Source: an uncultured Rickettsiales bacterium
Lineage (GTDB): Bacteria; Myxococcota_A; UBA796; UBA9615; CAYRNR01
NCBI GenBank assembly: GCA_964584075.1
Contig: CAZOYV010000001.1
Location: forward strand, 25,701-89,700
Direction of reading: 5' to 3'
Length of the DNA stretch: 64,000 nucleotides
Position numbers and translations under genes: made by a program. The notes beneath the pieces are model-generated. The model was not told where the DNA came from. It saw only the letters and a program-made list of their open reading frames with translations, and did no database searches. Each line of letters begins with the position of its first letter. The first letter of the stretch is position 1. Below, one piece after another: positions 30,075 through 51,837 of this stretch.

Positions 30075-32129
30075 ATGAGCAGGGACGACCGAGTCACCGA
30101 GGTGATGCCCCGCTCCACGGGGAACTACGCCCGCATGGGTCCCCGCGCGGCCCTGCTGTGCCAGGCCCTGTGGGTCCTGCTCGTGGTCAGCGTGCTGGTG
30201 CTCGACGTCGCGGGCGCGCTGGTGCGCCACGACGAGCTGGTGATCCCGATCCCCGAGGGTGGGGACCCGGCGATCGGCCAGTACCTGCCCGCCGAGCACG
30301 AGGCGCTGGCGGAGCTCGGCATCTCGATCTCCAGCGTGGTCCTGTACCTGGAGGGCCTGTCCGGCGCGGTGACGCTGGCCTGCCTGGCCTTCGGCGCGCT
30401 GATCTACTGGCGCCGGCGGGACAGCCTGGTGGCGTTCGTGGCCTCGCTGTTCCTGATCCTGGTGTCCATCGCGATGACGCAGAACGTCGACGCGCTGGCC
30501 CGGGCCGACGGCCACCTCGAGCCCGTCGCGAACCTGTTCCAGTCGCTGTCCTCGGCGTCGGTCCTGCTGCTGCTGCTGCTGTTCCCCAACGGGCGCCTGA
30601 CGACTCGCTGGCTGCACTGGGTGCTGCTGCTGTGGGTCGCGCTCCACGCGGTCCGGCTGCTGCTGCCCCACCCGCCGTTCGCCGAGGATCTGTGGTCGCC
30701 GGCGACGCTGTTCCTGCTCAACCTGCCGTTCTACCTGCTCGGGCTGGCCCTGCAGGTGCGGCGCTACCGCTCGATCTCCACGCCGGCCGAGCGCCAGCAG
30801 ACCAAGTGGATCGTGGTGGCGTTCGCCGCGCTGGTGGCGATCCACGCGGTGATCGTGGTGACGGTCTACGCGCTGCCCGCGGCGCTGGGGACGCCGCGGC
30901 TGCTGGACCGCCCGCTGCTCGACCTGGCCCACATCCTGGTGCTGTTCCACCTGTTCGTCGCGGCGCTGGCGCTGACCCCGGTGGCGTTCACCTTCGCGAT
31001 CCTGCGCTACCGGCTGTGGGACATCGACTTCATCATCAACCGCTCGCTGGTCTACGGCTCGCTGACCGCGGGGCTGGTGGCGTTCTTCGCCGTGTGCGTG
31101 TTCGCCACGCGCCAGGTGATGACGCTGTTCACCACCGGCGAGCACCTGTGGGTCGCGCTGTGCGTCGCGATGCTGGCGGTGGGCGTGGCGTTCCAGCCGA
31201 GCCGCCGGTTCCTGCACGACTGGGTCAACCGCCGGCTGTACGGGATCGGGATCCGGCCGCGCCGGCCGGTGGCCGTCGACGGGCTGCCCACCCGCCAGCT
31301 CCCGACCTTCGAGGGCTACCGCGACCTGCGGCTGATCGGCCGCGGGGGGATGGCGGAGGTCTACCGCGCCACGGACCCCGCCGGCTCCCGGGACGTGGCG
31401 ATCAAGATCATGGACGAGGCGCTGGCCGCGGACGACCCGATCTACGTGCGCCGCTTCGAGCGGGAGGTCGCCATCGTCCGCCAGCTGCAGCACGACAACA
31501 TCGTGCGGCTCTACGGCCACGGCGTGACCCCCGACGGCACGCGGTTCATGGTCATGGAGTACGTCGACGGCGTCGACCTCGGCCGGCACCTGTCGCGCCG
31601 CGAGCGCCTGACGCTGGACGAGGCGCTGCCGTTCCTGCAGGACCTGGCCCGCGCCCTGGACTACGCGCACGGCGAGGGGGTCGTCCACCGCGACCTGAAG
31701 CCCTCCAACGTGCTGCTGGATGCCTCGCAGGGGGGCCTCGAGGCGCCCCACCGGGCCGTGCTCGGCGACTTCGGGATCGCCAAGCTGGCCGCCGCCGAGT
31801 CCGACCTGACCGCCACCAACCTGGTGGGCACGCTCGACTACATCTCGCCCGAGCAGATCCAGGACGCCGCCGACGTGGACGGCCGGGCCGACGTCTACTC
31901 CGTCGGGGTGCTGGCCTACCAGCTGCTCACGGGCCGGCGGCCGTTCGAGAAGAGCAGCCCGGTGGCGCTGATGCTGGCCCACCTGCAGCAGCCGCCGGAC
32001 GACCCCCGGGCCCTCGTCCCGGATCTCCCACCCCCCGCCGCCGAGGGGGTCCTCACGGCGCTGGCCAAGCGTCCCCAGGACCGGTTCGCGACGGTGGGCC
32101 AGATGGTCGCGGCGCTGCGGCCGGCGTGA
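30075..32129 (+). CDS. Ser/Thr protein kinase with an N-terminal polytopic membrane domain (about 9 TM) and a C-terminal Hanks-type kinase domain
   Basis: LIGRGGMAEVYRA...VAIKIM, HRDLKPSNVLL, DFGIAK, GTLDYISPE. The N-terminal roughly 400 aa is hydrophobic helix-rich (LLVVSVLVLDVAGALV, LLLLLLFPNG, etc.). Confidence 0.8.
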   Translation: MSRDDRVTEVMPRSTGNYARMGPRAALLCQALWVLLVVSVLVLDVAGALVRHDELVIPIPEGGDPAIGQYLPAEHEALAELGISISSVVLYLEGLSGAVTLACLAFGALIYWRRRDSLVAFVASLFLILVSIAMTQNVDALARADGHLEPVANLFQSLSSASVLLLLLLFPNGRLTTRWLHWVLLLWVALHAVRLLLPHPPFAEDLWSPATLFLLNLPFYLLGLALQVRRYRSISTPAERQQTKWIVVAFAALVAIHAVIVVTVYALPAALGTPRLLDRPLLDLAHILVLFHLFVAALALTPVAFTFAILRYRLWDIDFIINRSLVYGSLTAGLVAFFAVCVFATRQVMTLFTTGEHLWVALCVAMLAVGVAFQPSRRFLHDWVNRRLYGIGIRPRRPVAVDGLPTRQLPTFEGYRDLRLIGRGGMAEVYRATDPAGSRDVAIKIMDEALAADDPIYVRRFEREVAIVRQLQHDNIVRLYGHGVTPDGTRFMVMEYVDGVDLGRHLSRRERLTLDEALPFLQDLARALDYAHGEGVVHRDLKPSNVLLDASQGGLEAPHRAVLGDFGIAKLAAAESDLTATNLVGTLDYISPEQIQDAADVDGRADVYSVGVLAYQLLTGRRPFEKSSPVALMLAHLQQPPDDPRALVPDLPPPAAEGVLTALAKRPQDRFATVGQMVAALRPA

Positions 32130-35142: not shown

Positions 35143-37074
35143 ATGGGCTCCTCGGTCCTGCCGGCATCCGGTCCGTGGCGGGTGCGCGACCCGCTCGTGA
35201 TCCTGGTGCTCGCCCTGGGCATCCGGGTGCTCTACCTCGCCGACTTCCAGGCCGATCCGTTCGCCCACGATCTGGTCAGCAACGCCGGGCTGTACCACCA
35301 GCTGGGCCAGGAGATCGCCCGCGGGGAGGGGCTCTCGGTGACCTCGGGGGCCCAGCCGCTGTACCCCCACGCGCTCGGCGCCTGCTACCGCCTGGTGGGC
35401 CCGTCCCCCCACGCGATCCGCCTCCTGCAGGCCCTGCTCGGCGGGCTGACCGCGGCCCTGCTGACCGTCCTCGCCGGTCGCCTCGGGGGCCGGAGCGCCG
35501 GGCTGGCCGCCGGGCTCGCCTGGTCGCTGTTCTGGCCCTCGGTGTACTACGCCGGGGAGCTCCTGCCCGACACGCTGGGCTGCGCGCTGATCGTCGCCGC
35601 GCTGGTGCTGCTGGCGCGGGCCGTGGAGCGCGGGGGCGCCGCGCGCTGGATCGCCGGCGCGCTGCTGCTGGGCCTGGCGGGGCTGCTCAAGCCCAACACC
35701 CTGCTGCTGTCCCCCTGGCCGGCGGTGGCGGTGCTGCTCGCGCCCGGCCTGGCGCGACCGGTCCGCCTGCGCCGCGCCGCGACGGCGCTGGTGGTCCCCG
35801 CCGCGGCGGTGCTGCTGCTCGCGGCGGGCTCGGTGCTGTACGCCGGGGACGAGGGCGGCAGCTCGGCCCACTTCGCCGCCAAGTCGCTGTGGGACGGCAA
35901 CCACGCCGGCGCCGACGGGATCAACCCGTTCATGGGCGAGTTCGACCACGTCCGCGGGTGGGACGTGTGGGACGATCCCGAGGACAGCGAGGCGATCGCC
36001 CGCGCGTTCGGCCAGGACCTGCGGGCCTTCGTCCGCGAGCAGCCCGGCGCGTTCCTGGCGCTGCAGGCGCGCAAGGCCGTGATCTTCCTGAGCCACCAGG
36101 AGGTGGGGAACAACGCCACGATCCCCTGGCGCCGCGCGCGCTCCCGGGTGCTGGCCCCCCCGGTGTGGCTCGGCTTCGGCGGGCTGGCGCTGCTCGCGGC
36201 ACCGGGCTGGGCCGTCGCGCTGCGCCGCTGGCGGGCGCTGGTCCTGCCGCTCGGCTGGCTGCTGACCTGGTCGGCGAGCATCGTGGCGATCCTCGTCGCG
36301 GGGCGCTACCGGCTCCCCGCGGCCGCGCTGCTGTGCTGCCTCGCGGGGCTGGGGGTGGCGTCCGTGCTCGACGGCATCCGCGCCGGGGACCGGCGGACGC
36401 TGGTGCGGGCCGCGGTGGTCGCCGCGGTGGTCGCCGCCGTGACGTTCCCCGACTACCTCGGGCTGCGCCGCTACCGCATCGCGTCCGTGATCGACCTCGA
36501 GGCTGGGGTGCTCGAGCGTGCCGGCGCCGTCGAGGCCGCCGCGCAGCGCTACCGGACGGGCATCGACCTGCCTCGCGGAGGAGCGAGCCTGCAGCGCAGC
36601 TACGGGCTGTTCCTGGTTCGCCAGGGCCGGGCCGAGGAGGGGCTGCGGCAGATGACCGAGGCCACCGGCCGCGCGCCGGACGACGCCAGCCTGCACAAGG
36701 ACCTCGGCGCCACCCTGCGCGAGACGGGGCGACCGCTGGACGCCCGGGAGAGCCTGCTGCGCGCGAAGGCGCTGGACCCCGGCGACGGCGGGATCCGGTA
36801 CGACCTGGGCCTCGTGTGGATGGACCTGGGACGGCCGGAGGAGGCCCAGCGGGAGTTCACCGCGGCCCTCGCCGAGGGGGCCGACTGGGGCGACGTGTGG
36901 CTGATGCGCGGGGTCGCCCGGGCGCAGCTGCAGCGGTACGACGAGGCCGAGGCGGACCTGCGCGAGGCGCTGATCCGGATGCCGGGAGATTGCAGGGTGC
37001 GCTCGAATCTGGGATTGCTGTACCAGCGGACCGGGCGCGAGGACGAGGCCCGGGAGGTGCGGGACGGATGCTGA
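35143..37074 (+). CDS. Glycosyltransferase family 39/83 (ArnT/PMT-like) membrane protein with C-terminal TPR repeats
   Basis: N-terminal roughly 400 aa polytopic (LVILVLALGIRVLYLADF, WSLFWPSVYYAGELLPDTLGCALIVAALVLLA). The C-terminal roughly 200 aa has TPR-like repeats (YRTGIDL..., LGLVWMDLGRPEEAQREF, RSNLGLLYQRTGREDEA). Confidence 0.6.
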   Translation: MGSSVLPASGPWRVRDPLVILVLALGIRVLYLADFQADPFAHDLVSNAGLYHQLGQEIARGEGLSVTSGAQPLYPHALGACYRLVGPSPHAIRLLQALLGGLTAALLTVLAGRLGGRSAGLAAGLAWSLFWPSVYYAGELLPDTLGCALIVAALVLLARAVERGGAARWIAGALLLGLAGLLKPNTLLLSPWPAVAVLLAPGLARPVRLRRAATALVVPAAAVLLLAAGSVLYAGDEGGSSAHFAAKSLWDGNHAGADGINPFMGEFDHVRGWDVWDDPEDSEAIARAFGQDLRAFVREQPGAFLALQARKAVIFLSHQEVGNNATIPWRRARSRVLAPPVWLGFGGLALLAAPGWAVALRRWRALVLPLGWLLTWSASIVAILVAGRYRLPAAALLCCLAGLGVASVLDGIRAGDRRTLVRAAVVAAVVAAVTFPDYLGLRRYRIASVIDLEAGVLERAGAVEAAAQRYRTGIDLPRGGASLQRSYGLFLVRQGRAEEGLRQMTEATGRAPDDASLHKDLGATLRETGRPLDARESLLRAKALDPGDGGIRYDLGLVWMDLGRPEEAQREFTAALAEGADWGDVWLMRGVARAQLQRYDEAEADLREALIRMPGDCRVRSNLGLLYQRTGREDEAREVRDGC

Positions 37075-40450: not shown

Positions 40451-41467
40451 TCAGTGCTTCAGCAGGTAGTGCAGGACGATCCACAGCAGCAGCGACGTCG
40501 TCGTCAGCGCCGAGATCGCCATCCCGATCGCCATCGAGCGCTTGATCGCGGCCGACGAGAACCCCTCGCTAGGCGGCGCCGCGTTGAACGCCGCCACGGC
40601 AGCCTCGAGATCCTCGCGGGAGCGGATGTCCGACTCGGTGGGGATCTGCCCCGTGACGAAGTGCTGCGCGTAGGGGAAGCACGCCACCACGGAGGGCTCG
40701 GGCGCGAACAGCCCCTCGTGCCACGACAGCTCCTCGAGCGTCACCGCGTCCAGCGGGATGCGCAGCGCGCGCTCCATCTCGCCGGGCTCGAAGACCAGCC
40801 CGAACGGGACCCCGCGCCCGTCGTCGAGGTGCCCGCCGTAGGACACCGAGAGGTTGCCCTCGAGCCACAGCCGCTGGTCCAGCGGGGTCTCCACCCCGGC
40901 GCGCACGTCCGCCACCGCCGCGATGCGCCGCGCCGGCTGGGCCCGCGGCACGTCCACGACGACCTCGCCGCGGTGGGTCGTGGTCACCACCGCCCCCCGC
41001 GCGCCGCCGTCGACGAAGCCCTGCCCCGGGTCGTAGCTCAGCGTGTCGCTGTCGTAGTCGACGATGACCCACGACATCATCCCGCTGTCCTCGTGCTCGG
41101 CGATCACGTACATCTCGACGCGGCTGCCCCAGAACGCGCTGGTGTGGACCGTGAAGGCCCCGAAGATCACGGTCGGCCGGGGCTCGTCGTCCTCGAAGAT
41201 CCGCGTCGGAACGATGCGGTAGCCCCGGGGGAGCAGGGCCTCTGCGCGCTCCACGTCGGTGATCTCGTGGCACAGGAACAGCGCGTAGGGCTCGACCACG
41301 AACCCCATGTAGGGGTTCTTCCGCGACGAGCTCTCCTGGATCCTCGCCTGGACCCCCGCCGGGAGCTTGCCGAGCAGCGAACCGAACAGCGAGATGATCG
41401 CGACCTCGTCGGGGTGCACCATCCGCTCGGCGCGCCGGGCGTACTCGTTCGTCGGATCTGCCTTCAT
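40451..41467 (-). CDS. Hypothetical protein with a C-terminal transmembrane anchor
   Basis: The likely start is MKADPTNEYARRAERMVHPDEV at about 41467. The C-terminus is hydrophobic (MAIGMAISALTTTSLLLWIVLHYLLKH). Confidence 0.4.
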   Translation of the reverse strand: MKADPTNEYARRAERMVHPDEVAIISLFGSLLGKLPAGVQARIQESSSRKNPYMGFVVEPYALFLCHEITDVERAEALLPRGYRIVPTRIFEDDEPRPTVIFGAFTVHTSAFWGSRVEMYVIAEHEDSGMMSWVIVDYDSDTLSYDPGQGFVDGGARGAVVTTTHRGEVVVDVPRAQPARRIAAVADVRAGVETPLDQRLWLEGNLSVSYGGHLDDGRGVPFGLVFEPGEMERALRIPLDAVTLEELSWHEGLFAPEPSVVACFPYAQHFVTGQIPTESDIRSREDLEAAVAAFNAAPPSEGFSSAAIKRSMAIGMAISALTTTSLLLWIVLHYLLKH

Positions 41468-41668
41468 CGGTGCTCCTCGCAGCGAAGCCTCCGGGACGAT
41501 ATCAGGCCGGCGCCGGCGGTGCGCAACGGGGGACCTCGACCCCATGGTGAACCTCATGATGAACTCGTGCGTTTGGCGCGATGGTCCTGGCGCGTTCCTG
41601 CGGTATCCTGTCTGTAGGGCCAACCGCCACGTGAGATCGATTCCGTGGTCGCCCGCACGGGAGGACAC

Positions 41669-41854
41669 ATGGACGCACTCCGGAGACTTCACACGGACGA
41701 GTCCGGGCAGGGCATGACCGAGTACATCCTGATCGTCGTGTTCGTGGCGATCGCGGTGCTGATCGTGCTCGGGATCTTCAAGGACCAGATCAAGCGGCTG
41801 TTCCGCGAGAGCAACCAGGAGCTGACCAACATCAACGTCGCGCCGACGCCGTAG
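41669..41854 (+). CDS. flp: Flp/Fap family type IVb pilin
   Basis: MDALRRLHTDESGQGMTEYILIVVFVAIAVLIVLGIF contains the Flp motif G-x4-EY followed by a hydrophobic helix. No tad genes lie nearby in the window. Confidence 0.6.
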   Translation: MDALRRLHTDESGQGMTEYILIVVFVAIAVLIVLGIFKDQIKRLFRESNQELTNINVAPTP

Positions 41855-41879
41855 GTCCGGACCGCCGCCAGCCTCCCCG

Positions 41880-42947
41880 TCAGGGCTCCAGCTGGAACCC
41901 GAGGCCCGGTTCGTCCCGCGGGTACAGCACCCCGTCGCGCAGGATCACGGCGTCGCGCGCCGGATCGTCGATCAGATCGAGGTGGCCGTCCAGGTCGGCG
42001 TAGCGCACGTTGGGCCGCGCCAGCGCCATGTGCAGCCCGGCGGCGATCGCCAGGCCGGACTCGTCCATGCAGCCGATCATCGCCTCGAGGCCGGCGGCCC
42101 GGGCCACCGAGTTGACGTGCATCGCCTGGGCGATCCCGCCGACCTTCATCAGCTTGATGTTGACCATGTCCACCAGGTCGCGCCGCGCCAGGCGGAACGC
42201 GTCGCGCAGCGTCATCAGGCTCTCGTCGGCCATCACCGGGATCGAGACCTGCCGGGTCACGCGGCCCAGCAGATCGGGCTGGCCCCGGGGGGTGGGCTGC
42301 TCGAGCAGCTCGAGATCGGCGTCCTCGGTGCGCCACACCAGCCGCTGGGCCTGCTCCACCGTGTAGCCCTGGTTGGCGTCGAACCGCAGCTGCACCTCGG
42401 GGCCCACCGCGCTGCGCACGGCCAGGACGCGGGCGATGTCCTCGTCCACGTCGGCGCCGCCCTTGAGCTTGAGGCTCGAGAACCCCTGCTCCACCAGATC
42501 GCGGGCCCGCGCGACGGTCTCGTCGAGGGGCCGGATCCCGATCGTGACGCTGGTGGCGATGTGGTCGCGGTACCCGCCCAGCAGCTGCCACAGCGGCAGC
42601 CCGCTGACCTGGCCCAGCAGGTCGTGCAGCGCCATGTCCAGCGCCGCGAGCGCCGAGGGCCGCGCGCCGAGCTCGTCGCGGAGCTGTTCCAGCAGCAGCG
42701 TCCGCCGCAGCGGGTCGGCGCCGTGCAGCACCGGCTCGGCGTCCTCGCGGAGGCAGGCCAGCACCTCCGCGGCGGTCTCCCCCGTGACCTCGAGGTCCGG
42801 CGCGGCGCAGCCGCACCCCACCAGCCCCTCGTCGGTGGCCACCCGCACGAACACGTTGGTCGTCGAGCTCACCGTCTCGTAGGCGATCGTGTACGGCTCG
42901 GTCAGCCGCATCGAGTGGCTCCAGGCCTCCACCGCGGTCACGCGCAT
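41880..42947 (-). CDS. Enolase-superfamily dipeptide epimerase (L-Ala-D/L-Glu epimerase / DgcA-like N-acyl-amino-acid racemase family)
   Basis: LKLKGG (KxK), DANQGY, MADESL and KLMKVGG are the canonical MR/MLE-subgroup catalytic motifs. 355 aa. Confidence 0.75.
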   Translation of the reverse strand: MRVTAVEAWSHSMRLTEPYTIAYETVSSTTNVFVRVATDEGLVGCGCAAPDLEVTGETAAEVLACLREDAEPVLHGADPLRRTLLLEQLRDELGARPSALAALDMALHDLLGQVSGLPLWQLLGGYRDHIATSVTIGIRPLDETVARARDLVEQGFSSLKLKGGADVDEDIARVLAVRSAVGPEVQLRFDANQGYTVEQAQRLVWRTEDADLELLEQPTPRGQPDLLGRVTRQVSIPVMADESLMTLRDAFRLARRDLVDMVNIKLMKVGGIAQAMHVNSVARAAGLEAMIGCMDESGLAIAAGLHMALARPNVRYADLDGHLDLIDDPARDAVILRDGVLYPRDEPGLGFQLEP

Positions 42948-42957
42948 CGGTCCGTCC

Positions 42958-45306
42958 TCAGCGCCGCCGGCCGCCGATGGCGTCCAGCGACAGGCCCTTG
43001 AGATCCTCGAGCAGGGTCACCATGTGGCGGATCTGGACCGCCCAGATCCGCCGCCCCTTGTCCGCGGTGGCCACCGTGGCGTCGCCCAGCACGCCGGTGC
43101 GCGACAGGCGCGCGGTGCGGACGTACCACTCGACGCTGCGAGGGCCGTCGAAGTCCAGGTACGGGCTGGGGAACCGCGACACGGAGCGCTCGGCGAGGGC
43201 CATGTCCACCAGCTGGGGGCGCTGCGCCAGCATCATGCTGGTCTCGATCTCCCCGGCGTGCACGTCGTTGGGGGTCGAGCAGATCGCCTCCACGTCGGCG
43301 TCGCTGGTCTCTCCGGTGTCGACGGTGGTGAAGATCCGCGCGTCGCGGTTGATCCGCTGGGCGGCGAGCTGCAGCGCGGGGATGTTGCCGCCGTGCCCGT
43401 TGACGATCACCAGCTTGGTGATCCCGTGGCGGGCCACGTTCATCCCGATCTCGTAGACCAGCCGCTCGAGCGTCTCGCCGTCGATCGCGATGGTGCCGGC
43501 GAAGTCCTCGTGGTGGTACGACACGCCGAACGGGATCGCGGGCAGCACCAGCGGCCGCGGCTCGGAGCAGGCCTCCGCGGCGGCCAGCGCCAGGAACTCG
43601 GCGCTGAACGTGTCGGTGTCCAGCGGCAGGTGCGGGCCGTGCTGCTCGGTGGCGCCCACCGGCAGCAGCGCCAGATCGGTCTGCTGCAGCCGGCGCAGCG
43701 CCTCGGGCCAGGTCAGCTCGCACCACAGCTGGGTCGACTTGGCCGGCGGCGGGATCGGATCGTCCCGGCGTGCGGAGGTCGCCTCGGCGGGCGGGGCCTC
43801 GAACGGGTAGGGCGCCGCGAGCACGTCCGGGTCCAGCGGATCGAACTCGACCCACACCCGGCCCACGCGCCGCACCGCGCCGTCGGCGTGCTCCAGCAGC
43901 AGCCGGGTCAGCGGCGCGCGCAGGTCGCGGGGGATCCAGTCCACCGGGGAGCGCACCGGGTCGTAGCGCAGCCGGCCGATCTCGGGGTGCGGCCGTGCGG
44001 CGTGGGCCGCGCCCCCCCCCTCGGGGAGCCGGCCCGCCTGGGACAGCAGCCAGGTCAGGTGCTGGGCCCCGGCCGACTCCTGGTGGACGCCGGCCTCGGC
44101 CAGCGCCCGGAGGCACTCCGCGACCTGCTCGGCGGTGTACCCGCAGCGGGTCGGGTCCGCTCCCAGCGCGACGAGCATCCCGACGATCCGGCGGCACTTC
44201 TCGCAGGCCCCGCAGGGCCGCACGCGGCCGTCCTCGACGTGGGTCGCGTGGCACGAGGTCTGGTGCGCCTGCAGCTCCGGGTAGCGCTCGACCAGCACCT
44301 TCTCGATCAGCAGCTCGGACAGCGGCCGCAGCAGCGAGAACTGGGCCACGTCCCAGCCCTTGCGGTGGAAGTAGCGCGACATCGCCTGGTCGAAGAACCG
44401 GCTCTGGTCGTACAGCCCGTCGTAGTGGGTGATCCCGTGGTACGTCTTGCGCACCGTGGTGTCGAACTCGTCGCCGATCAGCAGCCGCCCCAGCCCGCGC
44501 TTGCGCAGCAGCGGCAGCGCGCCGAACAGGAACACCGCCACGGTCCACAGCCGGATCGGGTACTCGTCGGAGCGCAGCCGCTGGAAGTCGGGCCGCACGA
44601 TCGGCAGCTGCCGGAGCATGAAGCTGAACACGCGGTCCGAGGTGGTCCACACCCGCGCGGTGTGCGGCACGTGCTCCGCGAAGTGCCGGTGGGCGTTGAG
44701 CGCGGTGTGCCAGTGGCGCCCCGACTCGGCCACGAAGATCGGGTGCGACTCCATCCCCAGCTCGCCCAGCAGGCCGTGGGTCAGCAGGCTGTCCTTGCCC
44801 CCGCTGGAGAGCACGGCGTGGCCGAGCCGGTCCAGGGCCCACGGACCCCCCTGGGGGCCCCCGGTGGGGAGCTCGCGGTCGAACAGCAGGCTGGCCTGGA
44901 GGTAGCGCCGCAGCGGACGGGGCTCCAGCTGGGCCGCCGCCCCGACCAGGAACGGGTTGGGATGCAGGAGCTTGATCGCGTAGATCTCGCGGGCGGTGTT
45001 CTCGGCCATGTCGGCGAGGAACCGCCGATCGTGGGCGTCCAGCGGATCGCGGAACACGATCTCGCCGCAGAACAGGCCGTAGTTCAGCGCCAGCTGCGCC
45101 CCGATCAGCCCGGCGAGGTTGCGGTCCGCGTCGGCGTCCGGCTCGAAGACGTCCTCGTCCCACTTGTAGACCAGCTCGGCGGAGACCCGCTCGCCCCCCC
45201 GGACCACCGTGTAGGGCGTGGCCAGCCGGCGCGGCTCGACCCGCGTCGGGCCCACCTCGAGGCGGTCGAAGGCCCGCAGCGCGTGCCGCACGGCGAGGTC
45301 GCTCAC
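42958..45306 (-). CDS. Fusion protein with an N-terminal PP-loop ATP pyrophosphatase-like domain (SGGKDS, C-terminal CxxC) and a C-terminal creatininase-family amidohydrolase domain
   Basis: LSSGGKDSLLTHGLLGELG followed by CGACEKC. The C-terminal LLPVGATEQHGPHLPLDTD...NGHGGN is the creatininase (PF02633) signature. The likely GTG start at about 45306 overlaps the upstream stop (GTGA). The track ORF N-terminal extension to 45786 is Arg/Gly-rich and overlaps the DUF1611 gene. Confidence 0.6.
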   Translation of the reverse strand: MSDLAVRHALRAFDRLEVGPTRVEPRRLATPYTVVRGGERVSAELVYKWDEDVFEPDADADRNLAGLIGAQLALNYGLFCGEIVFRDPLDAHDRRFLADMAENTAREIYAIKLLHPNPFLVGAAAQLEPRPLRRYLQASLLFDRELPTGGPQGGPWALDRLGHAVLSSGGKDSLLTHGLLGELGMESHPIFVAESGRHWHTALNAHRHFAEHVPHTARVWTTSDRVFSFMLRQLPIVRPDFQRLRSDEYPIRLWTVAVFLFGALPLLRKRGLGRLLIGDEFDTTVRKTYHGITHYDGLYDQSRFFDQAMSRYFHRKGWDVAQFSLLRPLSELLIEKVLVERYPELQAHQTSCHATHVEDGRVRPCGACEKCRRIVGMLVALGADPTRCGYTAEQVAECLRALAEAGVHQESAGAQHLTWLLSQAGRLPEGGGAAHAARPHPEIGRLRYDPVRSPVDWIPRDLRAPLTRLLLEHADGAVRRVGRVWVEFDPLDPDVLAAPYPFEAPPAEATSARRDDPIPPPAKSTQLWCELTWPEALRRLQQTDLALLPVGATEQHGPHLPLDTDTFSAEFLALAAAEACSEPRPLVLPAIPFGVSYHHEDFAGTIAIDGETLERLVYEIGMNVARHGITKLVIVNGHGGNIPALQLAAQRINRDARIFTTVDTGETSDADVEAICSTPNDVHAGEIETSMMLAQRPQLVDMALAERSVSRFPSPYLDFDGPRSVEWYVRTARLSRTGVLGDATVATADKGRRIWAVQIRHMVTLLEDLKGLSLDAIGGRRR

Positions 45307-46400
45307 GGCCGTTGCCCCCGGTGGCGGTGCAGCCGCGCGATGGCCTCGACCACCGGCGCGAGGTCGCCGGCCAGCGGCTCCACGGCGGGCCGGTCCGTGC
45401 GCCGCGCCAGCTCCTCGCATGCCGCCGCGACGCCCTCCTGTGCGAGCCCCTCGCGGTTCACCGTCAGCGCGATCACGGGCCTGTCGGACACGATCTCCAG
45501 GGCCTCGATCTGCCGCTCGATGGGGTGGATCGGGTAGCCGGGGAAGCCGTCGTAGTCCCCGCGCGCGGGGGCGTGCTGCAGCACGATCCCGGCGGGCCGC
45601 CCCGCCGCCAGGATCTCGAACCCGCCGGGGTAGGCGGGGTTGAGCAGGCTCCCCTGGCCCTCGATCAGGATCACGTCGGGGCGGGCGTCCTGCCAGCACT
45701 GCCATACCGCGTGCTCGATCTCGCCGGCAACGAAGTCGTTGACCAGCGAGTCCATCACCACGCCCCAGCGGGCGCCCTGCAGCCACGCCGTCTGGCCGGT
45801 GCCCACCAGCTCGGCGTGCAGCCCGGCCGCGGCCAGCGCGTCGGCCAGCAGCCAGGCCGTGGTCCGCTTGCCCACCGCCGAGTCGGTGCCGAGCACGGCG
45901 ACGGTCGTCGCCCCGACCTCCTCGATCTTGCCGCTGAAGAAGTGCAGCTCCGAGCGGGGCGGGGGCCTGCGGATGTCGCGCAGCCGCACCCCGTGCCGCT
46001 CCGCGAGGGCCACCAGCTCCGGGTCGTCGCCGAGCAGGTCGTGCAGCCCGCAGTCCACGTGCAGCCCGTGGGCGATCGCCCGCCGTACGTCCCGCAGCGC
46101 CCGCTCCGGCAGCCGGCCGCCGTCCGGCGCCAGGCCGACCACCAGGTGGGTCGCCGCCACCGGGCCCCCGGCGCTGTGCTCGACGGCCTCGTCGACGGAG
46201 GCCAGCAGCGGGATGTCGGCCGGCGCCCCGTCGAGCAGGGTCCCGGCGTCCTCGCCGGCGCAGGTGGAGTCGACCACGGACAGCACGTCGTAGCGGCGCG
46301 TGCGGCGCACCAGCCCGTGAGCGGTCTTGCCGTTGGTCGTGCGGAAGGCGCCCTCGCAGTACACGATGGCGCCGCCCTCCGGCCAGCTCTTCAGGGACAT
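45303..46400 (-). CDS. DUF1611-family protein (DgcN-like; commonly partnered with enolase-superfamily epimerases)
   Basis: Start MSLKSWPEGGAIVYCEG at about 46400, 5 nt after the upstream stop, with GGAGG in place. About 365 aa. Family assigned by overall similarity as I recall DUF1611 proteins. Moderate confidence. Confidence 0.55.
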   Translation of the reverse strand: MSLKSWPEGGAIVYCEGAFRTTNGKTAHGLVRRTRRYDVLSVVDSTCAGEDAGTLLDGAPADIPLLASVDEAVEHSAGGPVAATHLVVGLAPDGGRLPERALRDVRRAIAHGLHVDCGLHDLLGDDPELVALAERHGVRLRDIRRPPPRSELHFFSGKIEEVGATTVAVLGTDSAVGKRTTAWLLADALAAAGLHAELVGTGQTAWLQGARWGVVMDSLVNDFVAGEIEHAVWQCWQDARPDVILIEGQGSLLNPAYPGGFEILAAGRPAGIVLQHAPARGDYDGFPGYPIHPIERQIEALEIVSDRPVIALTVNREGLAQEGVAAACEELARRTDRPAVEPLAGDLAPVVEAIARLHRHRGQRP

Positions 46401-46405
46401 CGTCG

Positions 46406-47521
46406 TCACCTCCGCCCGGTCAGCACCGCCACGTAGCGGTCGCCGGGCAAGGGGCCCTCCCGGTGTCGGGACAGCAGCGCGATCAGCCCGGCGGTGGAGG
46501 CCGGCAGCACGCTCAGCCCCTCCCGCTCGCGGATCGTCCGCGAGACCGAGCGCATCGCGCGGTCGCTGGCGTCCAGCGCCCAGCCGTCGGTGGCGCGCAG
46601 CGCCTCGAGGGTCGCGTCGCCGTCGATCGAGTGCCAGTTGATCAGCGGCTCGTTGGTCTCGGTCTCGCGGATCTTGCCGGGGTCCAGGTCCTCGCAGGAC
46701 GCCAGCCCCCGCCGGTACGAGTGCACGATCGGGTTCTTGCCGTGGGACGAGCCCGCGACGATCCGCGGCATCCGCGAGGTCTTGCCGCGGCGGTAGAGGC
46801 TCAGGAAGCCGCGGTAGATCCCGGCCAGCGTGGTGCCGTTGGACACCGGCGCGGCGACCACCGCCGGCGCGTCGCGCAGCTCGTCGTAGATCTCGTAGGC
46901 GATCTCGCCGTAGGCCCGCAGCTGCAGCGCGGTGTTGGCCCCGCCCGGGTTGGCGTCGTAGTACTCCGCGGCCTGCGCCGTCTGCCGCGAGAACGCGACC
47001 GCCTGCTCGTAGTCCCCGGGCACCGTCACGATCTCGGCGCCGAGGGTCTCCATCTCGTCGCGGCGCCGCGGGTGGTAGGCCCCGGGCACGTGGATCACGC
47101 AGCGCAGCCCGGCGAAGCGCGCCGCGAGCGCCACCGCTGCGCCGTAGTTGCCGCAGGTCGCCGCGGTGATCACGTCGAACCCGCGGCGCAGCGCGTCCAT
47201 CGCCTGGGCGAACGCGATGCGGTCCTTCTGCGTCCCCGACGGGTTGCCGCCGTCGAACTTGAGGAACAGCTGCCGCAGACCGACCTCGCGCTCGAGGTTG
47301 CGGGCCCGCGTCAGCGAGGTGTCGCCGACCTCCGAGTCGGCGATGTTCTCGAACGCCTCGAGGCGCTCCTCGAGCTCGCGGTCGGGATCGGCGGCGATGC
47401 GCCGCTCGTGCTCCCACTGCTGTTCGAACGCGCCGGGCGCCGCCGTGGCGCCGTCGAGCAGGGTGTCGCCGGGCGTGGCCCGCAGCACGGCCGTGGGGTC
47501 GGGGGTCGGAACAGAACGCAC
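46406..47521 (-). CDS. Fold-type-II PLP-dependent enzyme (threonine-synthase / cysteine-synthase-like)
   Basis: GGNPSGTQKDR (PLP-Lys motif S/T-x-K-D-R), a Gly-rich loop and SNGTTLAGI. The likely GTG start at 47521 is preceded by GGAGG with a 5-nt spacer. The track ORF upstream extension (to 48412) is Arg/Ala-rich. Confidence 0.7.
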   Translation of the reverse strand: MRSVPTPDPTAVLRATPGDTLLDGATAAPGAFEQQWEHERRIAADPDRELEERLEAFENIADSEVGDTSLTRARNLEREVGLRQLFLKFDGGNPSGTQKDRIAFAQAMDALRRGFDVITAATCGNYGAAVALAARFAGLRCVIHVPGAYHPRRRDEMETLGAEIVTVPGDYEQAVAFSRQTAQAAEYYDANPGGANTALQLRAYGEIAYEIYDELRDAPAVVAAPVSNGTTLAGIYRGFLSLYRRGKTSRMPRIVAGSSHGKNPIVHSYRRGLASCEDLDPGKIRETETNEPLINWHSIDGDATLEALRATDGWALDASDRAMRSVSRTIREREGLSVLPASTAGLIALLSRHREGPLPGDRYVAVLTGRR

Positions 47522-47776
47522 GAGTGCCTCCGTTGCGAGTACGCGGTGGTAGTTTGCACCCGCCGTGCCAATCCGCGCGAGCGCTTCGCGACGGCGCGCG
47601 CCGCGCCGGGAGGGCGGTGATCCGGAAGCACGGCTTCCGGTCGTGTCCGATCCAGAAGTGGTGGTTCCGCTCTCGCGACGCGCGGTCCGCCGCGTCGAGG
47701 TGCTCCCGAGTGATCGTGCACCGATCCGGCGGGTGGTGGCTCTCCAGGGAGGAACCCCAGAGGAGAGCTCGTTCCC

Positions 47777-48127
47777 ATGCTCGGACGGCAGCGTACCCAG
47801 GACCGCTCGATCGAGAGCCGGATCCACGTCACCCCGGAGGCCCAGACCGCGCTGGTCGAGGCGCTGGACCAGGAGCCGGAGGCACCCCGCTCGTTGCGCC
47901 TGTACTTGCAGGGCTATGGCTGAGGCGGTCCCAGCCTGGGCGTGGCCCGGGACGAGGCACGCGACGACGACCGGCAGGTCCGGATCGGCGACCTGACGTT
48001 CCTGATCGACCGCGAGATGGAGCGGTCGCTGGCGATGTACGGCGGGCTCGAGATCGGGTACCGCGACAGCCCCTGGGGCGGTGGCTTCACGATCCAGTTC
48101 TCCGGGGTGGGCGGCGGCTGCTGCTGA
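47777..48127 (+). CDS. HesB/IscA-like Fe-S scaffold homologue selenoprotein with an in-frame TGA (Sec) at 47921-47923 replacing the first conserved Cys
   Basis: ORF 47777..47923 (IHVTPEAQTALVEAL...SLRLYLQGYG) and track ORF 47942..48127 (...RIGDLTFLIDREMERSLAMYGGLEIGYRDSPWGGGFTIQFSG..GGCC) are in the same frame with only the TGA between them. They align to IscA: I.LT..A...V..L....LRLGV..SGCSG..Y...VDGKSLQFLDGTQLDF...GF.F.NPN..CGCG. LQGYG-U-GG aligns with SGCSG. Confidence 0.6.
47935..47951 (+). promoter_or_regulatory. Putative SECIS hairpin for the HesB-like gene
   Basis: Begins 11 nt after the UGA. ccugggc-gug-gcccggg forms a 7-bp stem (one U.G at stem position 3) with a G/U loop. It has the same geometry as the hairpin after the PrdB-like UGA. 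Confidence 0.45.
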
Positions 48128-50958: not shown

Positions 50959-51837
50959 CTACCTCGTCCAGGGTGTGGACGGCTCCTGGGCCGGCCGCCC
51001 GATCAGGCGCGCGACGACGACCGCGCGGTCGCTGCCCTCCGACCACCGCTGGCCGGCGTGGCCGCCGAGCACCGCGAGCACGTCGAAGTCCCACTGGCCG
51101 AGCTGGGCCTCGAGCCACCGCAGGTCGACGCGGTACAGGTCCAGCGTGCACTCACGCGCCTCGATCAGCCTGCCGCTGACCGGATGGACCCGGCTGTACC
51201 GCTGGCGGATCTGGACCACGGTCCCGTCGATCGACGGATGCTCGAAGACCGTCTTGTCCACGACGTGACCGTAGGGCCCGACGCGGAACGTGCTGCGGGT
51301 GGCCTCGCGACCGCCGCCGGGAGCGGTGCGACCGGGGGAGGCGAGGTCGAGGATCAGCAGCCCGCCGGGGACGAGGTGCGCGGCGCAGCGCGCGAGGCAC
51401 GCCGCCTGGGGTGTGGGTCCGGGGAGCAGCTGCAGCCCCGAGAACGGGATCAGGATGGCGTCGAACCGGCGCGGGAAGCGGAACGACACCATGTCCTGCT
51501 GGGAGAACCGCAGGCGCGCCGCCACGTCGCCGGGCAGCCGGCGGCGCCGCGTCCGGGCCCGGCGGATCATCGACGCCGAGCGATCCAGGCCCATGACCCG
51601 CAGCCCGGCCTGCGCCATCGGGATCGCCACCCGGCCGGTCCCGCAGCCGAGCTCCAGGACGTCGCGGCAGGGGCCGTGATCGGCCAGCAGCCGCAGGGTC
51701 CCGGCGACGTCCGCCGTCGCGGCGGCGTACTCGGCGTCGTAGGTCGCGGCCAGCCCCCGGTAGGGATCGGCGACGGGCGGGACCGGCGGCGGGTCGGCGG
51801 ACCCGGGCTCACCCCCGGTCCGAGAGCGGCTTGCCAT
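50959..51837 (-). CDS. Class I SAM-dependent methyltransferase
   Basis: VLELGCGTGRVAIPMA (motif I), DAILIP... and GGLLILD blocks. The last gene of the minus-strand operon. Confidence 0.7.
   Translation of the reverse strand: MASRSRTGGEPGSADPPPVPPVADPYRGLAATYDAEYAAATADVAGTLRLLADHGPCRDVLELGCGTGRVAIPMAQAGLRVMGLDRSASMIRRARTRRRRLPGDVAARLRFSQQDMVSFRFPRRFDAILIPFSGLQLLPGPTPQAACLARCAAHLVPGGLLILDLASPGRTAPGGGREATRSTFRVGPYGHVVDKTVFEHPSIDGTVVQIRQRYSRVHPVSGRLIEARECTLDLYRVDLRWLEAQLGQWDFDVLAVLGGHAGQRWSEGSDRAVVVARLIGRPAQEPSTPWTR

What the first reader, a model, noticed from the sequence alone, without database searches (positions are those of the whole stretch)
42958..45306. Unusual single-polypeptide fusion of a PP-loop ATP pyrophosphatase domain and a creatininase-family domain
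Creatininase-family enzymes (creatininase, MftE, ArfB) are normally stand-alone proteins of about 250 aa. Here the domain is the C-terminus of a 780-aa protein whose N-terminal half carries an SGGKDS PP-loop and a C-terminal CxxC pair. The architecture suggests an adenylate-forming step coupled to amide hydrolysis or cyclisation. The N-terminal approximately 160 aa of the track ORF is low-complexity and probably untranslated.
Basis: partly seen in the sequence, partly recalled or inferred. Interest (0 to 1): 0.55.

Follow-up and report, generated by a model that had tools for sequence, protein, structure and literature searches.

The report
Conserved PP-loop–creatininase fusion enzyme operon
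The flagged gene is a real, widely conserved two-part enzyme (an ATP-using "activating" half tethered to a metal-dependent amide-cutting half) that sits in a four-gene operon shared by at least eight bacterial phyla, and neither the enzyme nor the operon's small-molecule product has been characterised.

Summary
Window 42958-45306 (-) is one uninterrupted gene of 782 aa. Its GTG start overlaps the stop of the upstream gene.

- **C-terminal module (aa 526-782):** a clear creatininase-family domain (PF02633, E 1e-70).
- **N-terminal module (about 505 aa):** no Pfam hit. It carries an invariant SGGKDS PP-loop and a Cys4 motif, and its AF2 model superposes on QueC, Cap9 and QatC. The only curated sequence relative is MurL, the ATP-dependent, AMP-forming peptide epimerase, and that match is remote.
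- **Not rare:** more than 120 protein clusters cover the full length at about 60% identity.
- **Operon:** it is always gene 3 of a compact cassette with variable flanks: ThrC-like PLP enzyme, DgcN-like DUF1611, this fusion, then a DxD-type dipeptide epimerase. All four genes occur in that order in 20 of 21 sufficiently long loci, from at least eight phyla.
- **Variants:** one fuses DUF1611 to the PP-loop module and leaves creatininase separate. An apparently archaeal contig keeps only the PLP, DUF1611 and PP-loop genes.

Best reading (inferred): a pathway for a small amino-acid or dipeptide derivative in which gene order follows reaction order. An amino acid is made, N-acylated, adenylated at its carboxylate and coupled, then deacylated, then epimerised. 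The substrate and product are unknown.

I rate it a new variant of a known kind, of moderate to high interest.

The parts
46406..47521 (-). Gene 1 of the cassette: ThrC-like PLP enzyme (PF00291), about 371 aa. The likely start is the GTG at 47521, with a GGAGG Shine-Dalgarno at 47528-47532. Its stop overlaps the start of gene 2.
   Evidence: Pfam PALP E 6.7e-56. NCBIfam PRK06381 'threonine synthase', 421 bits against a cut-off of 266. Best solved relatives are threonine synthases at only 78-90 bits. Start read from the sequence. Syntenic in 20 of 21 loci.
45303..46409 (-). Gene 2: DUF1611 protein (Rossmann-like N domain plus P-loop C domain), a distant homologue of the D-glutamate N-acetyltransferase DgcN.
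   Evidence: PF07755 E 1.8e-61 and PF17396 E 7.9e-24. DgcN model 146.9 bits against a cut-off of 480. PDB 2G0T, 7XRJ and 2OBN. Fused to the PP-loop module in P0124.
42958..45306 (-). Gene 3, the finding: 782-aa bifunctional protein, a PP-loop (QueC/QatC/MurL-like) module plus a creatininase-family module.
44842..45306 (-). aa 1-155: N-terminal extension of the PP-loop module (beta-meander plus helices; invariant NYGLF and NTAREI motifs). Comparable in position to the N-terminal extension of QatC.
   Evidence: AF2 model pLDDT 90-98 over most of the region. Invariant columns. Foldseek alignment to QatC spans 404 columns. QatC layout from PMC13279940.
44257..44841 (-). aa 156-350: PP-loop ATP-pyrophosphatase core. 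SSGGKDS lies at nt 44788-44808. A flexible, conserved active-site loop spans about aa 282-301 (HYDGLYDQS).
44194..44253 (-). aa 352-371: Cys4 cluster (C352, C365, C368, C371), inferred to be the zinc site that closes the QueC-type fold.
   Evidence: C352, C365 and C368 are invariant and C371 at least 90% conserved in the diverse family alignment. An equivalent Cys4 Zn site is described for QatC (PMC13279940). The weak MurL HMM match covers aa 304-374.
43792..44181 (-). aa 376-505: helical C-terminal extension of the PP-loop module.
   Evidence: AF2 secondary structure and pLDDT 75-96. A QatC-like C-terminal extension.
43732..43791 (-). aa 506-525: disordered, poorly conserved, length-variable linker between the two modules.
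   Evidence: pLDDT below 50 at aa 507-523. pTM falls from 0.87 for the module alone to 0.63 for the full length. Gapped, variable columns in A1.
42961..43731 (-). aa 526-782: creatininase-family metal amidohydrolase module. E554, H556, D565, H638, H683 and E688 are conserved. The residue equivalent to creatininase Glu122 is Gly640.
   Evidence: PF02633, 238 bits. MftE 148 against 172, creatininase 113 against 235, ArfB 30 against 180. Alignment to P. putida creatininase. Invariant columns.
41880..42947 (-). Gene 4: enolase-superfamily dipeptide epimerase. KxK and K catalytic lysines, Asp/Glu/Asp metal ligands and the DxD motif (ADLDGH) are all present. Glu occupies the position of B. subtilis AEE Arg24.
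   Evidence: PF13378 and PF02746. PDB 3RIT 254 bits, 3JVA 248, 1JPM 230. DxD in 23 of 23 and Glu in 21 of 23 cassette epimerases.
47556..47570 (-). Possible sigma-54 type -24/-12 promoter (TGGCACggcggGTGC, 1 mismatch), 35 nt upstream of the gene-1 start. Specific to this lineage.
   Evidence: One of 3 one-mismatch sites in the window. Not conserved upstream of the cassette elsewhere (2 of 21 loci, about background).

Best explanation
**What it is (shown).** One gene encodes a two-module enzyme.
- An approximately 505-aa QueC-family-like PP-loop ATP pyrophosphatase. It consists of an N-terminal extension, an SGGKDS core, a Cys4 knuckle and a helical C-terminal extension, which is the same tripartite layout as QatC.
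- An approximately 255-aa creatininase-family metal amidohydrolase.
- An approximately 20-residue disordered linker that joins them.

It is the third gene of a self-contained four-gene operon: ThrC-like PLP enzyme, DgcN-like DUF1611, this fusion, then a DxD-type dipeptide epimerase. All four proteins are about 46-71% identical between phyla.

**How it most likely works (inferred).** The operon makes or converts a small amino-acid or dipeptide-like metabolite, and gene and domain order mirrors reaction order.
1. The PLP enzyme supplies an amino acid.
2. DUF1611 N-acylates it, as DgcN acetylates D-Glu.
3. The PP-loop module adenylates the free carboxylate (ATP to AMP + PPi, as proposed for MurL). 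It then hands the acyl group to an amine to form an amide or peptide bond, as QueC does with ammonia and Cap9 with a protein N-terminus.
4. The tethered creatininase module hydrolyses the protecting N-acyl amide, a reaction type known in this family from ArfB (deformylase) and MftE (peptidase).
5. That exposes the free alpha-ammonium group which the DxD dipeptide epimerase needs in order to invert the C-terminal residue.

The expected product is a dipeptide-like compound carrying a D-residue. Its identity and role are unknown. An osmoprotectant is one possibility.
For: **Architecture.**
- Continuous ORF with a coupled GTGA start.
- More than 120 full-length homologous clusters at 58-66% identity.

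**PP-loop module.**
- Invariant S168-G-G-K-(D/E)-S173.
- AF2 model pLDDT 86, pTM 0.87.
- Foldseek: QatC E 4e-6 over 404 columns, then QueC and Cap9.
- Cys4 cluster conserved.
- MurL is essentially the only NCBIfam model hit: 7 of 21 diverse family members, best E 7e-10.
- MurL is ATP-dependent and AMP-forming, and is proposed to adenylate the alpha-carboxylate of an N-acylated C-terminal Glu (PMC8788868).
- QueC-family enzymes catalyse ATP-dependent reactions on a carboxylate substrate, and Cap9 leaves an amide-linked 7-amido-7-deazaguanine on a protein N-terminus (PMC13279940).

**Hydrolase module.** PF02633 at 238 bits. All residues aligning with the creatininase metal ligands and catalytic His are invariant.

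**Pathway.**
- All four genes in the same order in 20 of 21 loci long enough to judge, from at least 8 phyla.
- No other recurrent neighbour.
- An alternative fusion, DUF1611+PP-loop, with creatininase as a separate gene and the same order. Both observed fusions therefore join steps that are adjacent in the proposed order.
- The epimerase has the DxD motif, which B. cereus 2P88 lacks at that position (ELT instead), in 23 of 23 cassettes.
Against: - No substrate is identified, and no step has been tested biochemically.
- DUF1611 scores far below the DgcN cut-off (147 against 480), so an acyltransferase role is only an analogy.
- Variants lacking the creatininase module (L084, L085; the apparently archaeal L088), and L021, which lacks adjacent DUF1611 and epimerase genes, show that deacylation and epimerisation are not obligatory parts of the core.
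- The enolase chemistry of the epimerase needs a carboxylate on the inverted carbon. This constrains, but does not prove, a dipeptide product.
- MurL, the nearest sequence relative, is an epimerase rather than a ligase, which would make the operon's separate epimerase look redundant.
- AF2 gives no fixed interface between the two modules (pTM 0.63), so channelling is not supported structurally.
Confidence: 0.4

Rival explanations
1. MurL-type, ATP-driven, one-way L-to-D inversion. DUF1611 N-acylates an L-amino acid made by the PLP enzyme. [quoted passage not shown] The creatininase module then removes the acyl group or hydrolyses an activated cyclic (oxazolone-like) intermediate and releases a D-amino acid. 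This is an acylate, invert, deacylate logic.
For: MurL is the closest curated sequence family and is an AMP-forming unidirectional epimerase of an N-acylated C-terminal residue. The DgcN/DgcA homologue pair is present, and the DgcN-DgcA route converts D-Glu to L-Glu (PMC10845958). That route working through N-acetyl intermediates, the N-succinylamino-acid racemase pathway, and oxazolones being five-membered rings like creatinine are all my own knowledge.
Against: The MurL match is remote (24.6 bits against a cut-off of 700) and covers mainly the Zn-knuckle region. The operon already carries a reversible enolase-type epimerase. Its DxD motif points to a free N-terminal ammonium group, not an N-acyl substrate.
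Confidence: 0.2
2. Cyclic amide or amidine chemistry. The PP-loop module activates a carboxylate or an amide oxygen so that an intramolecular amine closes a ring (a lactam or an ectoine-like amidine solute). The converse is also possible: the two modules together form an ATP-dependent ring-opening enzyme for a creatinine-, hydantoin- or oxoproline-like compound, with the creatininase module making or breaking the cyclic amide.
For: Creatininase itself interconverts a five-membered cyclic amide and its open form, and many PP-loop enzymes adenylate amide or ureido oxygens, for example argininosuccinate synthetase, GMP synthetase and TilS (my own knowledge; these appear as structural neighbours). 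The Glu at the AEE Arg24 position of the epimerase hints at a cationic side chain that could cyclise. Osmoregulation-type neighbours (MscS, TrkA-linked permease, K+ channel) occur in 3 loci.
Against: The module fails the creatininase equivalog (113 against 235 bits) and lacks the Glu122 equivalent. The nearest PP-loop relatives (QueC, Cap9, MurL) act on carboxylates. The osmotic neighbours are too few (3 of about 27) to count. Variants without the creatininase module exist.
Confidence: 0.15
3. Protein or peptide N-terminal modification. Like Cap9 and QatC, the extended QueC-like module conjugates a small carboxylate to the N-terminal amine of a protein or peptide, and the other enzymes make or trim that adduct.
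For: The best Foldseek hit is QatC, with the same layout of N-extension, core and C-extension, and with a flexible conserved active-site loop. QueC-family proteins target protein N-termini.
Against: No QatB, CD-NTase, nuclease or other defence partner is present and no PADLOC model hits. No conserved small ORF lies in the cassette. All partners are small-molecule amino-acid enzymes.
Confidence: 0.07
4. A genuine deazapurine or GTP-derived nucleobase enzyme: QueC activity plus an ArfB-like formamide hydrolase.
Against: No hit to the QueC models in Pfam or NCBIfam. ArfB scores only 30 bits against a cut-off of 180. No queD, queE, folE or riboflavin genes lie nearby. A 2026 survey of the QueC family (PF06508) does not mention creatininase or MurL.
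Confidence: 0.03
5. Artefact: two adjacent genes joined by a sequencing or assembly frameshift, or a chance ORF in high-GC DNA.
For: High-GC DNA (72-76%) produces many long spurious ORFs.
Against: GC3 is 0.98 in this frame. More than 120 independent full-length homologous clusters from four data sources are recorded. The same fusion is found in at least 20 species-level genomes.
Confidence: 0.01

Closest known systems
[quoted passage not shown]
   Same: It is essentially the only curated sequence model that the N-terminal module and its family hit. The match of a family member (P0257) places about 130 residues ahead of the core, a comparable overall size and layout. MurL uses ATP, releases AMP and acts on the carboxylate of an N-acylated amino acid (PMC5808125, PMC8788868).
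   Different: The score is 24.6 bits against a cut-off of 700. There is no MurD2 partner. Here the module is fused to a hydrolase and embedded with a PLP enzyme, DUF1611 and a separate epimerase. Whether MurL has an SGGxDS motif could not be checked because no MurL sequence was available.
QueC family: QueC, CBASS Cap9, QatC
   Different: Not recognised by the Pfam or NCBIfam QueC models or by PADLOC. There is no deazapurine or defence gene context. Equivalence of the substrate-recognition residues could not be established.
Creatininase family (creatininase, MftE, ArfB, IolN)
   Same: Strong PF02633 match. The residues aligning with the creatininase metal ligands and catalytic His are invariant.
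   Different: Below every equivalog cut-off: MftE 148 against 172, creatininase 113 against 235, IolN 69 against 245, ArfB 30 against 180. The Glu122 equivalent is Gly. It is fused to a 505-aa module rather than standing alone. There are no mycofactocin, riboflavin or inositol genes nearby.
DgcN-DgcA D-glutamate pathway and the N-succinylamino-acid racemase pathway (acylate, racemise, deacylate)
   Same: The operon contains homologues of DgcN (DUF1611) and of DgcA-type enolase racemases, plus an amidohydrolase that could act as the deacylase (PMC10845958 for the pathway).
   Different: Both proteins score far below the equivalog cut-offs (147 against 480; 169 against 400). The epimerase carries the dipeptide-type DxD motif. 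An additional PLP enzyme and an ATP-dependent PP-loop step are present.
NAGGN synthesis (Ngg + AsnO), and N-acyl-protected routes such as the succinylase DAP pathway (own knowledge)
   Same: Shared logic: N-acylation, carboxylate activation by a PP-loop enzyme with amide formation, then deacylase and epimerase steps. NAGGN is an osmoprotectant dipeptide.
   Different: None of the enzymes are homologous apart from the PP-loop superfamily fold. This is an analogy only.

Membership tests
PP-loop ATP pyrophosphatase superfamily | SGGxDS pyrophosphate-binding loop after the first beta-strand of the core | tested here: met
   SSGGKDS at aa 167-173. S168, G169, G170, K171 and S173 are invariant in 24 fusions and S168, G169, G170 and S173 are at least 90% conserved in 21 diverse family members.
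PP-loop ATP pyrophosphatase superfamily | Rossmann-like alpha/beta fold superposable on known PP-loop enzymes | tested here: met
PP-loop ATP pyrophosphatase superfamily | Match to a curated PP-loop HMM | tested here: not met
   No Pfam PP-loop family at E up to 0.1. No NCBIfam PP-loop model. PDB profile search gives only marginal motif-level hits, MJ0690 at E 0.11.
PP-loop ATP pyrophosphatase superfamily | ATP to AMP + PPi with an adenylated intermediate | not testable with these tools
   Needs an enzyme assay.
QueC family (PF06508; QueC, Cap9, QatC) | Cys4 zinc site closing the core fold | tested here: met
   C352-x12-C365-x2-C368-x2-C371, conserved. The analogous QatC site is C334/C354/C357/C360. 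Metal binding itself was not tested.
QueC family (PF06508; QueC, Cap9, QatC) | Sequence-model membership | tested here: not met
   No QueC model hit in Pfam or NCBIfam. No PADLOC hit, so no QatC or Cap9 model matched.
QueC family (PF06508; QueC, Cap9, QatC) | 7-deazaguanine recognition residues (Tyr/Asp in QueC and Cap9; Thr/Thr in QatC) | tested here: inconclusive
   A conserved HYDGLYDQS loop lies in the corresponding region.
QueC family (PF06508; QueC, Cap9, QatC) | Gene context: que genes, or qatABD / CD-NTase | tested here: not met
   The neighbours are a PLP enzyme, DUF1611 and an epimerase. No recurrent flanking family.
MurL (NF041275) | Equivalog score of at least 700 bits | tested here: not met
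   24.6 bits, E 8e-6, over aa 304-374 only. Best family member 37.9 bits.
MurL (NF041275) | Partnership with the L-Glu-adding ligase MurD2 | tested here: not met
   No Mur-ligase domain in the window neighbourhood or among the most frequent families in the flanks of 24 loci.
Creatininase family (PF02633) | HMM above the gathering threshold | tested here: met
   238.2 bits against 31.3, covering 236 of 238 model positions.
Creatininase family (PF02633) | Metal ligands and catalytic His (creatininase E34, H36, D45, H120, H178, E183; numbering from my own knowledge) | tested here: met
   E554, H556, D565, H638, H683 and E688 align with them and are invariant.
Creatinine amidohydrolase proper (TIGR04448) | Equivalog score of at least 235 bits and Glu122 | tested here: not met
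   113 bits. NGHYEN of creatininase is NGHGGN here.
MftE (TIGR03964) | Equivalog score of at least 172 bits and a mycofactocin gene cluster | tested here: not met
   148.3 bits. No mft genes nearby.
Dipeptide epimerase (enolase superfamily), neighbouring gene 41880-42947 | KxK and K catalytic lysines, Asp/Glu/Asp Mg ligands, and the DxD motif for the substrate alpha-ammonium group | tested here: met
   Alignments to 3RIT, 3JVA and 1JPM. DxD is absent in B. cereus 2P88. ADLDGH is present in 23 of 23 cassette epimerases. The role of DxD is from my own knowledge.
DgcN / DgcA D-glutamate catabolic pair | Equivalog scores (DgcN at least 480, DgcA at least 400) | tested here: not met
   146.9 and 168.9 bits.

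The most novel reading that the evidence does not exclude
The four-gene cassette is a previously unrecognised, horizontally mobile biosynthetic pathway. It would build a D-residue-containing dipeptide-like metabolite, perhaps a new compatible solute of sediment bacteria, by a new ribosome- and NRPS-independent ligation logic. The steps would be transient N-acyl protection by a DUF1611 enzyme, amide-bond formation by a MurL/QueC-like PP-loop ligase, and in-cis deprotection by a tethered creatininase-type hydrolase. An older three-gene core (PLP enzyme + DUF1611 + PP-loop) would be shared with archaea.
Probability: 0.25. Interest if true: 0.75.

Novelty: new variant of a known kind. Interest (0 to 1): 0.58.

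Why it matters
**A large unmodelled branch of the PP-loop/QueC-like enzymes.**
- It has 615 representatives at 50% clustering among 1.84 billion proteins.
- Pfam, NCBIfam and PADLOC do not model the N-terminal module. Where a source names these proteins at all, it calls them creatininase-family or creatinine amidohydrolase-like proteins.
- Its only characterised sequence relative, MurL, is an enzyme whose mechanism is still unresolved. MurL is also of interest as a target for narrow-spectrum antibiotics.
- A tractable soluble paralogue with defined partners could help explain how this scaffold activates carboxylates.

**A rare kind of uncharacterised cassette.**
- Each of the four genes is about 46-71% identical across at least eight phyla, with the same gene order and alternative fusion points.
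- This points to an undiscovered metabolite or salvage route that is common in sediment and soil bacteria.

**An annotation lesson.** A confident Pfam hit on one third of a protein can hide a second catalytic module.

Tried and rejected
- **Riboswitch or leader RNA that might name the ligand.** No Rfam family reached gathering score in the window or in seven cassette loci.
- **Dedicated transporter, regulator or further enzyme.** Clustering of flanking ORFs and Pfam scans of 105 flanking ORFs found nothing in more than 3 of 24 loci.
- **Sigma-54 regulation as a common feature.** A one-mismatch -24/-12 site precedes the operon in the window. It is not conserved elsewhere (2 of 21, about background). 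My first version of that script checked the wrong positions for the -12 GC dinucleotide and returned nothing. It was corrected.
- **Sigma-70 promoters and intrinsic terminators.** None found.
- **Plasmid-borne copies with curated annotation.** None.
- **Anti-phage defence membership (QatC/Cap9).** No meaningful PADLOC hit.
- **Literature.** No paper in the library co-mentions DUF1611 or dipeptide epimerase with creatininase. The only two papers that co-mention creatininase and QueC are unrelated. One search was wasted on an ambiguous term.
- **AFDB fold search.** The library was unavailable.
- **Organism identity.** The exact-sequence look-ups returned no name.
- **Direct MurL comparison.** No MurL sequence could be fetched, so the relationship rests on HMM scores only.
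- **Actinomycete origin.** This was my first guess from the GC content. I rejected it after finding a sigma-54 activator in the window; that actinobacteria lack sigma-54 is my own knowledge.


Full report
**1. The gene**

The mechanical ORF list gives 42958..45786 (-), 942 aa. The window is 68-76% G+C, so long ORFs alone mean little. I therefore scored codon-position GC. The frame has GC3 0.98, and the best-scoring start is the GTG at 45306, which gives 782 aa.

That GTG overlaps the TGA stop of the upstream gene (…ggccGTGAgc…), a typical coupled junction. The 160 codons upstream of it lie inside the upstream gene in another reading frame. Homologues align from residue 1-10 onward with 97-100% coverage.

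**2. Domains**

Pfam recognises only Creatininase (PF02633, 238 bits, E 1.1e-70, aa 530-765 of the 782). NCBIfam places that part below every equivalog cut-off: MftE 148 against 172, creatininase 113 against 235, IolN 69 against 245, ArfB 30 against 180.

Aligned to P. putida creatininase, the positions of the metal ligands and the catalytic His are E554, H556, D565, H638, H683 and E688. All are invariant in 24 homologues. Creatininase Glu122 corresponds to Gly640 (creatininase residue roles are from my own knowledge).

The first 505 residues have no Pfam hit. They do contain SSGGKDS (aa 167-173) and C352-x12-C365-x2-C368-x2-C371. A profile of this half found only marginal, motif-level matches in the PDB (MJ0690 at E 0.11, TtuA).

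An AlphaFold2 model built from 12 sequences is confident (pLDDT 86, pTM 0.87).
- Foldseek ranks QatC first (E 4e-6, 404 aligned columns, TM 0.39/0.46), then QueC and Cap9.

Published QatC structures describe an N-terminal extension, a QueC core with SGGxDS and a Cys4 Zn site, a three-helix C-terminal extension, and a long active-site loop (PMC13279940). The module here has the same layout:
- N-extension, aa 1-155.
- Core, aa 156-350.
- Cys4 cluster, aa 352-371.
- Helical extension, aa 376-505.
- A conserved but low-confidence loop at aa 282-301.

The PP-loop assignment is therefore sound even though no HMM library detects it.

By sequence, the only curated family touched is MurL (NF041275): 24.6 bits for this protein, and 7 of 21 diverse family members at E up to 0.01, best 7e-10. 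MurL is an ATP-dependent, AMP-forming, unidirectional epimerase. [quoted passage not shown]

The full-length model has a disordered linker (aa 507-523, pLDDT below 50) and a lower pTM (0.63). The two modules are tethered, and no fixed interface between them is predicted.

**3. Distribution**

The fusion is common. The best 120 database clusters are all 757-839 aa, 58-66% identical and near full coverage. Their names place them in Acidobacteriota, Desulfobacterota, Gemmatimonadota and Planctomycetota, among others. Where a source names them at all, they are labelled as creatininase-family or creatinine amidohydrolase-like proteins.

An exhaustive HMM search with the N-terminal module alone found 615 representatives (E up to 0.001) among 1.84 billion. 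They include:
- stand-alone 460-520-aa forms;
- a DUF1611+module fusion (P0124, 855 aa);
- a module+methyltransferase fusion (P0123, on a short low-coverage contig);
- members with degenerate PP-loops (P0131, P0223).

**4. Context**

In the window the gene is third in a tightly packed minus-strand operon.
- ThrC-like PLP enzyme, 46406-47521.
- DUF1611, 45303-46409.
- The fusion, 42958-45306.
- Enolase-superfamily epimerase, 41880-42947.

The junctions overlap by 4 nt, overlap by 4 nt, and leave a 10-nt gap, respectively.

All four genes occur in that order in a Gemmatimonadota chromosome and in Desulfatiglans. In a scan of species-representative genomes they occur in that order in 20 of the 21 loci long enough to judge, adjacent in 19 of them; in L007 the epimerase lies 2.6 kb further downstream. 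The genomes span Pseudomonadota, Krumholzibacteriota, Desulfobacterota (including cultured Desulfosarcina widdelii), Acidobacteriota, Gemmatimonadota, Bacteroidota and Calditrichota. Each protein is about 46-71% identical to the window's copy.

Nothing else recurs in the flanks, so the cassette is self-contained and probably mobile.

Variants delimit the core.
- PLP, DUF1611, module (no creatininase), epimerase (L084, L085).
- PLP, DUF1611, module only, in a contig with archaeal-type genes (L088).
- PLP and fusion only (L021).
- PLP, [DUF1611+module], separate creatininase, epimerase.

Two different fusion points that keep the same domain order are strong evidence that all five domains act in one pathway.

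**5. The partners**

*Epimerase.* Its best solved relatives are dipeptide epimerases: 3RIT 254 bits, 3JVA 248, B. subtilis YkfB (1JPM) 230. It has the KxK and K lysines and the Mg ligands. It also has the DxD motif (ADLDGH), which B. cereus 2P88 lacks at that position. From my own knowledge, 2P88 is an N-succinyl-amino-acid racemase, and the DxD motif binds the substrate's free alpha-ammonium group.

DxD is present in 23 of 23 cassette epimerases. The position of YkfB Arg24 is Glu in 21 of 23. In YkfB, from my own knowledge, that Arg binds the Glu side chain of the substrate. This is a weak hint of a cationic C-terminal residue.

*DUF1611.* It is a distant DgcN homologue (147 against 480 bits). 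DgcN-DgcA is a route from D-Glu to L-Glu (PMC10845958). NCBIfam names DgcN an N-acetyltransferase and DgcA an N-acetyl-D-Glu racemase.

*PLP enzyme.* It passes the PRK06381 'threonine synthase' model (421 against 266 bits). It is only remotely similar to solved threonine synthases (at most 90 bits), so its reaction is unknown.

**6. Mechanism**

What is shown: the architecture, the fold assignments, the conserved catalytic motifs of both modules, the operon and its variants.

What is inferred: the chemistry.

The most economical scheme lets gene order equal reaction order.
1. The PLP enzyme makes an amino acid.
2. DUF1611 N-acylates it.
3. The PP-loop module adenylates the carboxylate and forms an amide or peptide bond. 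QueC-family precedent: ATP-dependent reactions on the carboxylate substrate CDG, with ammonia (QueC, my own knowledge) or a protein N-terminal amine (Cap9) as the partner.
4. The tethered creatininase-type hydrolase removes the N-acyl group. Family precedents are the ArfB deformylase and the MftE peptidase.
5. The DxD epimerase, which needs a free N-terminal ammonium group, inverts the C-terminal residue.

Both observed fusions (DUF1611+module and module+creatininase) join steps that are consecutive in this scheme. I give the scheme 0.4.

Rivals:
- MurL-like ATP-driven inversion with acyl protection and deprotection (0.2).
- Ring closure or ATP-dependent ring opening of a cyclic amide or amidine (0.15).
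- QatC/Cap9-like protein N-terminal modification (0.07).
- True deazapurine chemistry (0.03).
- Artefact (0.01).

Hints of an osmotic role are too sparse to weigh. MscS, TrkA-linked permeases or a K+ channel lie next to the cassette in only three loci.

**7. Novelty**

I found no paper describing this fusion, the N-terminal family or the cassette. A 2026 survey of the QueC family (PF06508) does not mention creatininase or MurL.

It is not categorically new, because both modules belong to known superfamilies. It is a new variant: an unmodelled MurL/QatC-like PP-loop family, a new fusion partner, and a conserved pathway with an unknown product.

Noticed in passing
window 47777-48127 (+): A small ORF divergent from the cassette reads through an in-frame TGA (…LYLQGYG*GGPSLG…, ending in GGGCC). 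With Cys in place of the stop it weakly matches the HesB/IscA Fe-S biosynthesis family across the stop (PF01521, E 0.0016, below the gathering score). It could be a HesB-like selenoprotein or a pseudogene. The hairpin after the UGA is no more stable than shuffled sequence (z 0.37).
   Followed up: partly
window 50959-55827 (-), with 55869-55883 and 56043-57455: A second operon. It holds a 102-aa ORF, a lysine-2,3-aminomutase-like radical SAM enzyme (54347-55432), an ATP-grasp ligase (53355-54356), an ATP-grasp+GNAT fusion (51809-53350) and a methyltransferase (50959-51837). It is preceded by a one-mismatch sigma-54 -24/-12 site (TGGCACggccgATGC), and a sigma-54 activator gene lies next to it. 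It looks like a pathway for a beta-lysine-derived peptide or acylated product.
   Followed up: partly
window 47556-47570 (-): A sigma-54-type promoter-like element lies 35 nt upstream of the cassette's first gene. It is one of only three one-mismatch sites in the window. It is not conserved upstream of the cassette in other genomes.
   Followed up: yes
whole window (e.g. 56043-57455, 30075-32129, 35182-37074): The window combines 68-76% G+C with a sigma-54 activator, a Ser/Thr protein kinase and a TPR/PMT_2 protein. The source is probably not an actinomycete. A myxobacterium-like or similar high-GC Gram-negative organism fits better.
   Followed up: partly
window 40451-41467 (-) and the 412-nt gap 41468-41879: Downstream of the cassette lies a 338-aa ORF with strong coding signal (GC3 0.98), an apparently hydrophobic C-terminal stretch and no Pfam or NCBIfam match. 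It is absent from the other cassette loci.
   Followed up: partly
proteins P0131 and P0223 (family members): Some stand-alone members of the N-terminal family have lost the SGGxDS motif (VESGTND, LNAAPEA). P0223 keeps the four Cys positions and P0131 three of the four. They are probably non-catalytic paralogues.
   Followed up: no
locus L028 8001-10290 (Gemmatimonadota MAG): The fusion gene matches in several broken pieces at reduced identity, while its three neighbours are intact. It may be a pseudogene, or the assembly may carry frameshifts.
   Followed up: no
locus L091 417-5373: A divergent PP-loop+creatininase fusion (P0152, 781 aa) lies in a different context. It is followed by an unannotated 421-aa protein and a CofD-family (2-phospho-L-lactate transferase-like) protein. 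The upstream side is cut by the contig end.
   Followed up: no
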